Positions 4,720 to 64,000 of a DNA stretch of 64,000 nucleotides are shown here, one piece after another. Position numbers and translations under genes: made by a program. Location: the NCBI RefSeq assembly GCF_050320075.1, contig NZ_CP190018.1; one strand, given 5' to 3'. The notes beneath the pieces are model-generated. The model saw only the letters and a list, made by a program, of their open reading frames with translations. It was not told the DNA's origin and did not search any database. This stretch comes from Escherichia coli (GTDB taxonomy: Bacteria; Pseudomonadota; Gammaproteobacteria; Enterobacterales; Enterobacteriaceae). Within the stretch, counting starts at the first letter, position 1. Each line of letters opens with the position of its first letter.

Positions 4720-5093
4720 TGTGCAATATTCTCCAGCCAGGGGTTATTAAAATGAGGACCTGGTCTCATTTAAAAATAAATGACTTCATTGGGTGAAATA
4801 AGAATGTCAGGAGTTTAAACGCAGAAATGTGATCAATGTCAATCATTTCAGGGATTGCAGTGCCGCACGGTAAGGTAAAGCGCAAATCTGTGCTTTAGCG
4901 CGCAACCTTATGTGCATATGCTCAAAATAATATTTAAATAGTATTAATTAAATTAGCATTTGCACAATGATTATTATTCTCGCGCTGCTTATACTAATTC
5001 CCGAGTTCATTGCCGTAACGGCATAAATAAAACTCATAAATAACACCTTCCCCATAATAATAAAAATCAGCATAAGTACCCGAGGTAAATAAA

Positions 5094-61454: not shown

Positions 61455-62975
61455 ATGTCTTCTCATCCGTATGTCACCCAGCAAAATACCCCGCTGGCGG
61501 ACGATACCACTCTGATGTCCACTACCGATCTGCAAAGCTATATCACTCATGCTAATGACACTTTTGTGCAGGTGAGCGGCTTTACCTTGCAAGAGTTACA
61601 AGGGCAGCCGCACAACATGGTGCGTCACCCGGATATGCCAAAAGCGGCGTTTGCAGATATGTGGTTCACCCTGAAAAAAGGGGAGCCCTGGAGCGGCATC
61701 GTGAAAAATCGCCGCAAAAATGGCGACCATTATTGGGTGCGGGCCAATGCGGTACCGATGGTGCGCGAGGGAAAAATCAGTGGCTATATGTCGATTCGTA
61801 CCCGGGCGACGGATGAAGAGATCGCGGCGGTGGAGCCGCTGTACAAAGCGTTGAACGCCGGACGTACCAGTAAGCGTATTCATAAAGGCCTGGTGGTGCG
61901 TAAAGGCTGGCTGGGTAAACTGCCTTCATTACCGCTTCGCTGGCGGGCGCGTGGCGTGATGACCCTGATGTTTATCTTGCTGGCGGTCATGCTTTGGTTT
62001 GTTGCTGCCCCGGTGGTGACGTATATCCTCTGTGCGTTAGTGGTATTGTTGGCAAGCGCCTGTTTTGAATGGCAGATTGTCCGCCCGATAGAAAATGTCG
62101 CCCGTCAGGCACTGAAGGTGGCGACCGGAGAGCGTAATAGTGTTGAGCATCTGAATCGCAGCGATGAGCTGGGGCTGACATTACGCGCGGTAGGGCAGCT
62201 TGGCCTGATGTGCCGTTGGCTAATTAACGATGTCTCAAGCCAGGTGTCCAGTGTCAGAAACGGCAGTGAGACGCTGGCGAAAGGTACCGATGAACTGAAC
62301 GAACATACCCAGCAGACAGTTGATAACGTTCAGCAAACGGTGGCGACCATGAACCAAATGGCGGCGTCGGTGAAACAGAACTCTGCCACGGCGTCGGCTG
62401 CCGATAAACTTTCTATCACTGCCAGTAATGCGGCAGTGCAGGGCGGGGAGGCGATGACCACGGTGATCAAGACAATGGACGATATCGCCGACAGTACCCA
62501 GCGCATTGGCACCATTACTTCGCTGATTAACGATATTGCGTTTCAGACCAATATTCTGGCCCTGAATGCGGCGGTGGAAGCGGCGCGTGCCGGCGAACAA
62601 GGCAAAGGTTTTGCAGTGGTGGCAGGGGAAGTGCGTCATTTAGCCAGCCGCAGCGCCAATGCTGCCAACGATATTCGCAAGCTGATTGATGCCAGTGCTG
62701 ATAAGGTGCAATCCGGTTCGCAGCAGGTACACGCAGCCGGACGGACGATGGAAGATATTGTTGCACAGGTGAAAAACGTCACCCAGTTGATAGCTCAGAT
62801 TAGCCATTCAACGCTGGAACAGGCCGATGGGCTTTCCAGCCTGACCCGTGCAGTGGATGAGCTTAACCTCATCACCCAGAAAAATGCCGAGCTGGTGGAA
62901 GAGAGTGCGCAGGTGTCGGCGATGGTGAAACACCGCGCCAGCCGACTGGAAGACGCGGTGACGGTGCTGCATTAA
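61455..62975 (+). CDS. aer: Aerotaxis receptor (PAS-FAD plus MCP signalling domain)
   Basis: 506-aa [46 protein letters not shown]... Confidence 0.92.
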
Positions 62976-63003
62976 TCGATATGCCGCATCCGGCAATCGG
63001 TGA

Positions 63004-63627
63004 TTAATCCAGTTGCGTAATATCAAAAGCGGCGCGGTCGATCACCGCAATGATCTTTTTTATCTGCGCATCAGTGATATCGCTCTGGTTGACGCGTAAA
63101 TCCAGCACCGCTTTAAAATTATCCAGTGCCCGCTTCATTTGCGGGTTCTGGCGGAGTGCAGCGCCAACGCAACGCGCTTTGATGCGTTCTTCGATCATCT
63201 CCACCTGTTCGCGGTTTTCTTCCAGCCACTGCGCGCCCTGTTCGGTCAGCGCAATCTGCTTCTTACCACCTTCCTCTTCGCGGATGGTAATCAGCGACTG
63301 CTCCTGGAGAAAATCCAGCGTCGGGTAGATGACGCCCGGGCTTGGGGTGTAATTCCCCTGGGTTAGATTCTCAATCGCTTTAATCAACTCGTAACCGTGG
63401 CTGTCATCGCGCGAGAGAATATCCAGAATCACCAGACGCAATTCACCGTGACCAAAGAAACGCTGCCGACGACCGCCGCCGCGACCGTGGCGACCACCGC
63501 AGCATTGACCGTGTTCATGCTGGTGACCGTGTCCGCAGTGCTCATGTTCTGACTTCTCACCTTTGCAGCAGCCTTCATGGCGTGGCTGGCCTTCATGTTT
63601 ACAACACCCTTCGTGATGATGGCTCAT
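63004..63627 (-). CDS. yqjI: PadR-family transcriptional repressor with His/Cys-rich N-terminus
   Basis: 207 aa from ATG 63627 (MSHHHEGCCKHEGQPRHEGCCKGEKSEHEHCGHGHQHEH...). Confidence 0.88.
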   Translation of the reverse strand: MSHHHEGCCKHEGQPRHEGCCKGEKSEHEHCGHGHQHEHGQCCGGRHGRGGGRRQRFFGHGELRLVILDILSRDDSHGYELIKAIENLTQGNYTPSPGVIYPTLDFLQEQSLITIREEEGGKKQIALTEQGAQWLEENREQVEMIEERIKARCVGAALRQNPQMKRALDNFKAVLDLRVNQSDITDAQIKKIIAVIDRAAFDITQLD

Positions 63628-63833
63628 ATCAGTCTCCTTTTGCTTGATTAGATATATCTTATTTATATCTGATATGAGCGCTCTTGCAAGTATAAAAATG
63701 ATTTTTAAACGTGGATGCACCTCACATCCAGGCCGGATAATGCGTTCACGCCGCATCCGAAAGCCTTGCTACGACGCTGAATGTCTTCTCATACTTCAGA
63801 TATATCAGTTCTACAAATCGCTTGCATTTATCA

Positions 63834-63852
63834 TGATTAACAATCATTATCA
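63834..63852. promoter_or_regulatory. Candidate Fur box upstream of yqjH
   Basis: TGATTAACAATCATTATCA resembles the Fur consensus GATAATGATAATCATTATC; about 55 bp upstream of the yqjH ATG. Confidence 0.55.
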
Positions 63853-63904
63853 TTTGCGAAATTTTATTTAGATATATCTGATTACCATCATGAAGGCGAT
63901 AACA

Positions 63905-64000
63905 ATGAATAACTCCCCCCGCTACCCGCAGCGCGTTCGCAATGATCTGCGCTTCCGTGAACTGACTGTATTGCACGTTGAGCGCATCAGCGCCGGTTTT
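63905..64000 (+). CDS. yqjH: NADPH-dependent ferric-siderophore reductase, N-terminal part only (runs off window end)
   Basis: ATG at 63905, translation MNNSPRYPQRVRNDLRFRELTVLHVERISAGF...; divergent from yqjI. Confidence 0.75.
   Translation, partial: MNNSPRYPQRVRNDLRFRELTVLHVERISAGF

What the first reader, a model, noticed from the sequence alone, without database searches (positions are those of the whole stretch)
63640..63890. Three copies of an AGATATATC palindrome plus a Fur box in the yqjI-yqjH divergent control region
TTAGATATATCTTATT (63648-63663), TTCAGATATATCAGTT (63796-63811) and TTAGATATATCTGATT (63868-63883) share the core AGATATATC; the third copy contains the 10-bp palindrome AGATATATCT. 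A Fur-like box lies at 63834-63852. This fits known dual control of yqjH by Fur and by the His/Cys-rich PadR-family repressor YqjI, with the palindromes as candidate YqjI operators.
Basis: partly seen in the sequence, partly recalled or inferred. Interest (0 to 1): 0.25.

Follow-up and report, generated by a model that had tools for sequence, protein, structure and literature searches.

The report
Known NfeR/Fur control region of nfeF
This is the well-studied E. coli control region between the nickel-responsive repressor gene nfeR (yqjI) and the ferric-reductase gene nfeF (yqjH): the two outer palindromes and the Fur box are real, conserved operators, and the middle copy is only a variable, weaker look-alike.

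Summary
All five strand-hits of AGATATATC in the 64-kb window lie in this 277-bp intergenic region, against 0.23 expected. The second copy is really at 63795-63810, one base off, and copy 1 also contains the 10-bp palindrome.

The locus is E. coli aer / nfeR(yqjI) / nfeF(yqjH). NfeR is a PadR-family protein with a His/Cys-rich N-terminal tail.

I compared 31 orthologous loci from Escherichia, Citrobacter, Enterobacter, Lelliottia, Superficieibacter and Raoultella.
- **Outer palindromes and Fur box:** both palindromes (consensus TTAGATATATCTAA) and the Fur box/-10 block are nearly invariant, while the rest of the spacer is not conserved.
- **Missed fourth copy:** TTATTTATATCTGA at 63659-63672, 11 bp from copy 1, is equally conserved and covers the predicted nfeR -10.
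- **Middle copy:** it is polymorphic within E. coli. K-12 and O157 carry AGACATATC, which scores at background level. Other genera keep only TATC plus an A-tract at that place.

This fits my memory of the published K-12 model: two YqjI sites about 200 bp apart, a Fur box and a REP element between them. I could not retrieve those papers.

Verdict: already known and of low interest. The only open point is whether the middle element is an auxiliary NfeR half-site.

The parts
63004..63627 (-). nfeR (yqjI) coding sequence, 207 aa. PadR-family repressor with a His/Cys-rich N-terminal tail.
   Evidence: ORF. RefSeq annotation of the identical record. Pfam PadR E=2.5e-15. 12 His and 7 Cys in the first 56 aa.
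63634..63639 (-). Ribosome-binding site of nfeR (AAGGAG on the minus strand), 6 nt before the ATG at 63627-63625.
   Evidence: Read from the sequence. Inference.
63648..63661 (.). Site II-a: NfeR operator palindrome TTAGATATATCTTA. Most E. coli carry the perfect TTAGATATATCTAA. It overlaps the predicted nfeR transcription start.
   Evidence: Ranks 1 of 63,987 positions with a matrix trained only on non-Escherichia orthologous sites. Present in all 31 orthologous loci. 1 of 14 positions variable among 14 E. coli alleles.
63659..63672 (.). Site II-b: degenerate fourth copy TTATTTATATCTGA, centred 11 bp from II-a. It carries one good half-site (TATATCTGA) and covers the nfeR -10.
   Evidence: Matrix rank 5 of 63,987. 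The TATATCTAA block is conserved in the orthologous loci. No variable position among the 11 outside II-a.
63662..63667 (-). Predicted nfeR -10 hexamer TATAAA (TTTATA on the plus strand).
   Evidence: TTGCAA-16-TATAAA read from the sequence. Shimada et al. 2014 list the same hexamers and spacing for yqjI (PMC3946193). The spacing is kept in Citrobacter. Inference, not a mapped start.
63684..63689 (-). Predicted nfeR -35 hexamer TTGCAA.
   Evidence: Sequence, PMC3946193, and TTGCAA-like hexamers at the same distance from II-b in other genera.
63714..63765 (.). REP (repetitive extragenic palindromic) element. Specific to Escherichia at this locus and the most variable part of the spacer.
   Evidence: 63732-63761 matches a 30-nt REP pattern that has two other copies in the window and none in shuffles. 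Sub-threshold hit to the REP-derived naRNA4. IS1397 is inserted here in strain IAI39. 47% of columns are variable. Absent from Citrobacter, Raoultella and Enterobacter.
63795..63810 (.). Middle copy TTCAGATATATCAGTT: one good half-site (TCAGATA) and one poor one (TATCAGT), 12 nt upstream of the nfeF -35 hexamer. Status uncertain: a possible auxiliary NfeR half-site, or a promoter-upstream (UP-like or IHF-like) element.
   Evidence: Matrix score 15.2 bits, rank 3 in the window, against 22 bits for sites I and II-a. Three E. coli forms were found; the K-12/O157 form ATAGACATATCAGT scores 9.5, which is background level. 4 of 16 positions variable. Only TATC plus an A-tract is conserved in 18 non-Escherichia spacers.
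63822..63827 (+). Predicted nfeF -35 hexamer TTGCAT.
   Evidence: CTTGCA is an unbiased conserved block across genera and invariant in E. coli. Its role as a -35 hexamer is inferred.
63830..63857 (.). Fur box array (ATCATGATTAACAATCATTATCATTTGC), overlapping the spacer and -10 of the nfeF promoter.
   Evidence: 14/19 and 13/19 matches to the Fur consensus, among the top 5 positions in the window. CAATCATTATCATTT is conserved in all orthologous loci. yqjH is described as part of the Fur regulon (PMC9501238).
63845..63850 (+). Predicted nfeF -10 hexamer CATTAT, 17 nt after TTGCAT. Alternative promoter: TTAACA (63837-63842) then TTTTAT (63862-63867).
   Evidence: The conserved hexamers and spacing are read from the sequence. 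The alternative comes from PMC3946193. The default promoter scan found nothing at its threshold. The start site is not mapped here.
63868..63881 (.). Site I: NfeR operator palindrome TTAGATATATCTGA, 14 nt downstream of the conserved AATCATTATCAT block (Fur box right half / -10). It lies at about +11 to +24, or across the start site if the alternative promoter is used.
   Evidence: Matrix rank 2 of 63,987. TTTAGATATATC is a conserved block across genera. 1 of 14 positions variable in E. coli.
63905..64000 (+). Start of nfeF (yqjH), NADPH-dependent ferric-chelate reductase, cut by the window end. Its ribosome-binding site GAAGG is at 63892-63896.
   Evidence: RefSeq annotation of the identical record. 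Divergent nfeF is found next to nfeR in 31 of 32 related loci; in the other, the contig ends before it.

Best explanation
The 277-bp spacer between nfeR (yqjI) and nfeF (yqjH) is a divergent promoter region under two repressors.

**NfeR.** Dimers of this PadR-family winged-helix protein bind the 14-bp palindrome TTAGATA|TATCTAA at two places.
- Site II (63648-63672) is a full palindrome plus a half-site one helical turn (11 bp) further on. It covers the -10 hexamer and start of the nfeR promoter (TTGCAA-16-TATAAA), giving autorepression.
- Site I (63868-63881) lies just downstream of the nfeF -10, inside the region RNA polymerase must occupy, and blocks nfeF.

**Fur.** Fur-Fe2+ binds the Fur box array (63830-63857) over the spacer and -10 of the nfeF promoter. 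nfeF is therefore expressed only when iron is low and NfeR has been released by nickel or iron binding to its His/Cys-rich tail.

**REP element.** The Escherichia-specific REP element lies between the two NfeR sites.

**Middle copy.** The copy at 63795-63810 is not an equivalent third operator. It is a polymorphic, half-palindromic relative of a conserved TATC plus A-tract element just upstream of the nfeF -35. At most it is an auxiliary half-site.

**Shown here:** identity of the genes, the motif statistics, and conservation or polymorphism of each element.

**Inferred:** promoter hexamers and start sites, steric mechanism of repression, and who binds where. Binding was shown experimentally for K-12 in Wang et al. 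2011 and 2014. I know those papers from memory only and could not read them here.
For: - **Locus identity:** 100% match to E. coli records annotated aer/nfeR/nfeF.
- **Protein family:** PadR domain above the Pfam cut-off. The nearest solved structures are PadR regulators.
- **Motif statistics:** AGATATATC is confined to this spacer, 5 hits against 0.23 expected. A matrix trained only on non-Escherichia orthologous sites ranks II-a, I, the middle copy and II-b as 1, 2, 3 and 5 of 63,987 window positions.
- **Conservation across genera:** in 31 loci from six genera, II-a plus II-b, site I, CTTGCA and the Fur/-10 block are kept while the surrounding sequence is not alignable. The unbiased conserved blocks are GATATATCTAAT, TATATCTAAA, AAAAA, CTTGCA, CAATCATTATCATTT and TTTAGATATATC.
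- **Polymorphism within E. coli:** sites I and II and the Fur box vary at 0-7% of positions, against 47-60% in neighbouring spacer and REP sequence.
- **Fur consensus:** 14/19 match, among the top 5 in the window.
- **Promoter:** TTGCAA-16-TATAAA for yqjI is listed independently in PMC3946193.
- **Literature:** NfeR represses nfeF and nickel relieves this. Deleting nfeR in K. pneumoniae raised nfeF 85-fold (PMC7981267). yqjH is in the Fur regulon (PMC9501238). The title of Wang et al. [quoted passage not shown]
Against: - PMC3019823 and PMC4135662 are not held, so the match between my sites and the published footprints rests on memory of the abstracts.
- Transcription starts are not mapped here. 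The consensus promoter scan found no promoter at its threshold. Two nfeF promoter candidates exist (against the conserved TTGCAT-17-CATTAT).
- The middle copy scores clearly above background in this allele (15.2 bits; next best background hit 11.2). A TATC core at that position is invariant in 18 non-Escherichia spacers. Real NfeR binding there cannot be excluded.
Confidence: 0.85

Rival explanations
1. All three copies are NfeR operators. The middle copy is a third site that takes part in cooperative binding or looping with sites I and II.
For: - In this allele the middle copy is the third-best match in 64 kb (15.2 bits) and shares the perfect half-site TCAGATA with site I (inverted repeat I5).
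- A TATATC or TATC core is conserved at the equivalent place upstream of the nfeF -35 in Citrobacter, Raoultella, Superficieibacter and Enterobacter sp. kpr-6.
- Enterobacter has a third phased repeat there.
Against: - It is polymorphic inside E. coli, with 4 of 16 positions variable.
- K-12-like and O157 alleles carry AGACATATC, which scores 9.5 bits. About nine sites per 64 kb score at least that well.
- One Escherichia strain has AGATGTTTC.
- The second half-site is poor in every allele.
- As I recall, the published K-12 work describes two sites, not three.
Confidence: 0.25
2. The middle element is not an NfeR site. It is a promoter-upstream element for nfeF: an A/T-rich UP-like element or a binding site for a DNA-bending protein such as IHF.
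For: - In other genera the conserved part is TATC followed by 5-8 A residues directly upstream of the -35 hexamer.
- TATCAAAAAAGTG matches the IHF consensus WATCAANNNNTTR with one mismatch in several Citrobacter species.
- A perfect IHF consensus sits at a fixed place further upstream in Citrobacter and Raoultella.
Against: - E. coli has no A-tract here (CAGTTCTACAAATCG), and no IHF match with one mismatch or fewer anywhere in the spacer.
- The invariant TATC is also the core of the NfeR half-site TATCTAA.
Confidence: 0.3
3. The repeated palindromes are chance products of an AT-rich spacer, or belong to another regulator, and NfeR binds elsewhere.
For: Nothing positive.
Against: - 0.23 hits expected against 5 observed.
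- The palindromes are nearly invariant across six genera at fixed positions relative to both promoters, always next to nfeR.
- The literature titles speak of YqjI binding sites in this spacer.
Confidence: 0.03

Closest known systems
[quoted passage not shown] 2014, J Bacteriol)
   Same: Same genes, same divergent arrangement, same Fur box. The palindromes at the two promoters are the same, about 220-230 bp apart centre to centre, with a REP element between them. The site I 14-mer (TTAGATATATCTGA) is identical to the K-12-like allele; site II differs from it only at 63660.
   Different: - The window carries a minority allele of the spacer. It is 89.6% identical to K-12-like strains over 401 bp, with an 11-bp indel next to the REP element.
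- Site II-a has one outer substitution (TTAGATATATCTTA instead of ...CTAA).
- The middle copy is a better match (AGATATATC) than in K-12 (AGACATATC).
- The published footprint coordinates could not be checked here.
PadR-family repressors binding inverted repeats at their own and a neighbouring promoter (for example PadR of Bacillus subtilis, LmrR of Lactococcus lactis)
   Same: Winged-helix PadR domain. PadR regulators are the closest solved structures. Palindromic operators, autoregulation, divergent target gene.
   Different: - NfeR carries a His/Cys-rich N-terminal metal-binding tail and responds to nickel and iron rather than to organic ligands.
- The operator sequence is unrelated to that of B. 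subtilis PadR (ATGT-N8-ACAT, from memory).
- No NfeR structure was found.
Classical Fur-repressed promoters (Fur box GATAATGATAATCATTATC over the -35/-10 region)
   Same: A 13-14/19 match with a perfect right half, overlapping the predicted -10 and spacer, and conserved across genera.
   Different: A second, metal-specific repressor site follows 14 nt downstream of the conserved Fur box/-10 block, so the promoter integrates two metal signals.

Membership tests
PadR-family regulator NfeR (YqjI) | PadR winged-helix DNA-binding domain | tested here: met
   PF03551, 56.6 bits against a cut-off of 27, residues 67-136. The best PDB relatives are PadR regulators.
PadR-family regulator NfeR (YqjI) | His/Cys-rich N-terminal extension | tested here: met
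   12 His and 7 Cys in the first 56 residues. The tail is much reduced in the Enterobacter orthologues.
PadR-family regulator NfeR (YqjI) | Divergently transcribed from the ferric reductase gene nfeF | tested here: met
   RefSeq annotation of the identical record. nfeF is on the opposite strand next to nfeR in 31 of 32 related loci; in the other, the contig ends before it.
NfeR operator (outer copies: site I, and site II-a plus II-b) | Inverted repeat at the nfeF and nfeR promoters, conserved with the regulator | tested here: met
   14-bp palindrome TTAGATATATCTAA or a near-match at both ends of the spacer in 31 loci from six genera. Ranks 1 and 2 in the window.
NfeR operator (outer copies: site I, and site II-a plus II-b) | Direct binding by purified NfeR (footprint or EMSA), released by nickel | not testable with these tools
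   Reported for K-12 in Wang 2011 and 2014 (from memory). Neither paper is held in the library.
NfeR operator (middle copy 63795-63810) | Conserved two-half-site palindrome comparable to sites I and II | tested here: not met
   One half-site is poor (TATCAGT). Score is 15.2 bits against 22. It is polymorphic in E. coli, with AGACATATC in K-12 and O157. Only TATC plus an A-tract is conserved elsewhere.
Fur box | Match to the 19-bp consensus GATAATGATAATCATTATC overlapping the promoter | tested here: met
   14/19 on the minus strand at 63839-63857 and 13/19 on the plus strand at 63833-63851. Only 5 window positions reach 14/19 or better. It overlaps the predicted -10 and spacer.
Fur box | Fur binding and iron-dependent repression | not testable with these tools
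   yqjH is described as part of the Fur regulon (PMC9501238), and the title of Wang 2011 says the same. Conservation in all orthologous loci agrees.
REP element | Member of the repeated GC-rich extragenic palindrome family | tested here: met
   63732-63761 matches a 30-nt REP pattern with 3 mismatches. Two further copies lie in the window and none in shuffles. The REP-targeting IS1397 is inserted here in IAI39 (the target preference is from memory).

The most novel reading that the evidence does not exclude
The middle element could be a true auxiliary NfeR half-site. On this reading it is conserved as TATC or TATATC upstream of the nfeF -35 across Enterobacteriaceae. Some E. coli alleles, including this window's, have strengthened it to a near-palindrome, while K-12 and O157 have weakened it. 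Natural alleles would then differ in the strength of NfeR repression, or in communication between sites I and II. The K-12-based two-site model would be incomplete for a large part of the species.
Probability: 0.25. Interest if true: 0.25.

Novelty: already known. Interest (0 to 1): 0.1.

Why it matters
It matters little as a discovery: the dual Fur/NfeR control of nfeF and the two NfeR sites are textbook-level for E. coli K-12. That footprint defines the operator as TTAGATA|TATCTAA with an 11-bp-phased extra half-site at the nfeR promoter. It also shows that the 'third copy' seen in this strain is an allele-specific improvement of a weakly conserved element. That point is useful only to someone studying natural variation in, or looping at, this promoter pair.

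Tried and rejected
- **Primary papers.** I tried to read the papers with the footprints (PubMed 21097627, PMC3019823, PMC4135662, and the DOI of the 2018 J Inorg Biochem paper). None is held. Full-text searches for YqjI/NfeR operator data returned only secondary mentions.
- **Promoter scan.** The consensus promoter and terminator scan of 63560-63960 found nothing at its threshold. Promoters were therefore inferred from conserved hexamers and from PMC3946193.
- **Rfam.** The only hit was sub-threshold, to REP-derived naRNA4 (20 bits against 59.5). No RNA element is indicated.
- **Inverted repeat at the nfeR start codon.** The perfect 11-nt repeat 63622-63632 / 63669-63679 could in principle sequester the ATG in an mRNA hairpin. 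I rejected this. The fold is not unusual (z = -1.76). The right arm is polymorphic without compensating changes. It also lies upstream of the predicted start.
- **Helical phasing between sites II-a and I as a test of looping.** Distances taken are 217-220 bp in the window and the three other Escherichia loci, and 230 bp by my count for the K-12-like allele (220 + 11 - 1, from the alignment). They are 172-185 bp in Citrobacter, 174 in Enterobacter sp. kpr-6, 183 in Raoultella, 166 in Superficieibacter and 96-97 in Enterobacter and Lelliottia. There is no common phase, so this is uninformative. Within E. coli the 11-bp indel changes the distance by about one turn.
- **IHF consensus.** No match with one mismatch or fewer in the Escherichia spacers.

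Full report
**1. Observation**

Reading the sequence confirms the three 16-mers.
- TTAGATATATCTTATT is at 63648-63663.
- TTCAGATATATCAGTT is at 63795-63810.
- TTAGATATATCTGATT is at 63868-63883.

The 9-mer AGATATATC has five strand-hits in the 64-kb window. All fall within this one intergenic region, against 0.23 expected from shuffles. Copies 1 and 3 both contain the 10-bp palindrome AGATATATCT, not only copy 3.

The Fur-like box is real. It matches GATAATGATAATCATTATC at 14/19 on the minus strand (63839-63857) and 13/19 on the plus strand (63833-63851). Only five of about 128,000 positions in the window reach 14/19.

**2. What the locus is**

The stretch 62900-64000 is 100% identical to E. 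coli chromosomes annotated aer / nfeR / nfeF, and it is present in 5,423 of 5,426 complete genomes.
- nfeR (= yqjI) is 63004-63627 on the minus strand.
- nfeF (= yqjH) starts at 63905 and is cut by the window end.

NfeR has a PadR domain (56.6 bits against a cut-off of 27), and PadR regulators are its nearest solved relatives. Its first 56 residues hold 12 His and 7 Cys.

Accessible papers state the following.
- NfeR represses nfeF and nickel relieves this. Deleting nfeR in K. pneumoniae raised nfeF 85-fold (PMC7981267).
- yqjH belongs to the Fur regulon (PMC9501238).

The two primary papers, Wang et al. 2011 and 2014, are not held. I cite their content only from memory of the abstracts:
- two YqjI sites, I at yqjH and II at yqjI, nearly 200 bp apart;
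- an extended footprint at site II;
- a REP element and IHF between the sites.

**3. Comparison across genera**

A scan of one genome per species found 32 loci encoding NfeR relatives. In 31 of them nfeF is the divergent neighbour; in the other, the contig ends before it. The loci come from Escherichia, Citrobacter, Enterobacter, Lelliottia, Superficieibacter and Raoultella.

I extracted the spacers and scanned them. Every one has the same four features.
- A full palindrome, TT[A/T/C]GATATATCTAA, next to nfeR (site II-a).
- A second element, TATATCTAA, exactly 11 bp further on (site II-b).
- CTTGCA, then a spacer, then CAATCATTATCATTT. This is the -35 hexamer and the Fur box/-10 of nfeF.
- TTTAGATATATC starting 12-14 nt after that block (site I).

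An unbiased search for conserved blocks in 18 non-Escherichia spacers returned exactly these elements plus an A-tract. Mean column identity over the whole spacer was only 68%.

I trained a position matrix solely on the non-Escherichia sites and scanned the window. It ranks II-a, I, the middle copy and II-b as 1, 2, 3 and 5 of 63,987 positions. Their scores are 22.1, 22.1, 15.2 and 11.1 bits. The best unrelated hit scores 11.2.

**4. Variation within E. coli**

This spacer is unusually variable for E. coli. Only 109 of 5,422 genomes are 99% or more identical to the window over 63560-63960, and 3,638 are 80-90% identical.

The share of variable positions among 14 sampled alleles:

| Element | Variable positions |
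|---|---|
| Site II-a | 1 of 14 |
| Rest of site II-b | 0 of 11 |
| nfeF -35 hexamer | 0 of 6 |
| Fur box/-10 | 2 of 30 |
| Site I | 1 of 14 |
| Adjacent promoter spacers | 55-60% |
| REP region | 47% |
| Middle copy | 4 of 16 |

The middle copy, including its core, comes in three forms.
- TTCAGATATATCAGT: this window and 6 other sampled alleles.
- TACAGATATATCAGT: the EcN-like and IAI39 alleles.
- TATAGACATATCAGT: the K-12-like and O157 alleles, and all four alleles I checked in the 89.4-89.9% identity class. That class makes up 16 of the 40 evenly spaced sample rows.

The K-12 form scores 9.5 bits, the level of ordinary background sites. One Escherichia genome has AGATGTTTC.

Outside Escherichia, only TATC (often TATATC) followed by 5-8 A residues is kept at the equivalent position just upstream of the nfeF -35. 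Enterobacter has a compact spacer of 130-144 bp, and there a third 11-bp-phased repeat occupies that place.

**5. How it most likely works**

*nfeR promoter.* It reads TTGCAA (63689-63684), 16 nt, TATAAA (63667-63662) on the minus strand. Shimada et al. list the same hexamers and spacing for yqjI (PMC3946193), and the spacing is kept in Citrobacter. Site II-b therefore covers the -10 hexamer and site II-a covers the start site. This gives autorepression by occlusion.

*nfeF promoter.* The conserved hexamers are TTGCAT (63822-63827), 17 nt, CATTAT (63845-63850). The Fur box array (63830-63857) covers the spacer and -10, and site I lies at about +11 to +24. With the alternative promoter TTAACA-18/19-TTTTAT, site I would sit on the start site instead. 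Either way, both repressors compete with RNA polymerase.

*Status of these steps.* The promoter hexamers and start sites are inferred. The default scan found no promoter at its threshold.

*REP element.* The Escherichia-specific REP element separates the two NfeR sites. In Citrobacter and Raoultella, which lack REP, a perfect IHF consensus sits at a fixed central position. That would fit a bent or looped complex, but I did not test this.

**6. The middle copy**

I treat it as a non-equivalent element. It may be an auxiliary NfeR half-site, since its conserved TATC is the core of the half-site TATCTAA. It may instead be a promoter-upstream element: an A-tract, and in Citrobacter an IHF-like match with one mismatch. 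The data here cannot separate these two readings. They do exclude a conserved full operator.

**7. Comparison with what is known, and verdict**

Everything essential matches the published K-12 system. That system has Fur plus YqjI/NfeR control of yqjH/nfeF, with two NfeR sites and REP between them. The finding is correct, already known and of low interest.

- the operator consensus from six genera;
- the conserved 11-bp-phased extra half-site at site II;
- evidence that the 'third copy' is allele-dependent.

The most novel reading still open is that the middle element is an auxiliary operator whose strength differs among natural E. coli alleles. I put this at about 0.25.

Things tried that led nowhere are listed separately: literature retrieval, Rfam, an mRNA hairpin over the nfeR start codon, and helical phasing between the sites.

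Noticed in passing
window 63560-63960: The nfeR-nfeF spacer of this strain is a minority allele. Only 109 of 5,422 complete E. coli genomes are 99% or more identical, and 3,638 are only 80-90% identical. The differences cluster in the REP element, its flanks and the promoter spacers, with an 11-bp indel after 63764. That is very high divergence for an E. coli intergenic region.
   Followed up: partly
L005 (E. coli IAI39, NC_011750.1) 1-700, equivalent to window ~63730: In strain IAI39 an IS3-family IS1397 element is inserted at the REP element of this spacer. It separates nfeR and site II from the Fur box, site I and nfeF. The effect on regulation is unknown.
   Followed up: no
NfeR N-termini in L010-L041; window 63460-63627: The metal-binding N-terminal tail of NfeR varies strongly between genera. 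It is Cys- and His-rich in Escherichia and Citrobacter, His-rich without Cys in Raoultella, and almost absent in Enterobacter and Lelliottia (MRHEHEGGGRRPRFFGHG...). The operators are conserved all the same. Nickel sensing may therefore differ or be absent in some genera.
   Followed up: no
L014, L018, L020, L021, L023, L038-L041: spacer positions ~81-84 from the nfeR start: The REP-less spacers of Citrobacter and Raoultella carry a perfect IHF consensus (for example AATCAATTAATTA) at a fixed central position between the two NfeR sites. The Escherichia spacers have no match with one mismatch or fewer.
   Followed up: partly
L022, L024-L030, L032, L034 (Enterobacter, Lelliottia): The spacer is compact, 130-144 bp, and site II consists of three repeats phased at 11 bp (for example TTTGATATATCTAAACTATATCTAAGATATATTCAG). 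The third repeat lies in the nfeR promoter spacer, 16 nt upstream of the nfeF -35.
   Followed up: partly
window 4963-4981: The best match to the Fur consensus in the whole window (15/19, GAGAATAATAATCATTGTG on the minus strand) lies in the garD-garP intergenic region. I know of no Fur control of these genes, so it may be chance.
   Followed up: no
window 63622-63632 and 63669-63679: A perfect 11-nt inverted repeat (GCTCATATCAG / CTGATATGAGC) brackets site II and includes the nfeR start codon. The RNA fold is not unusual (z = -1.76). The right arm is polymorphic without compensation, and it lies upstream of the predicted start. It is probably incidental.
   Followed up: yes
window 63660: This allele has T where the other 14 sampled E. 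coli site II sequences have A (TTAGATATATCTTA instead of the perfect palindrome TTAGATATATCTAA). This slightly weakens the outer pair of site II-a.
   Followed up: partly
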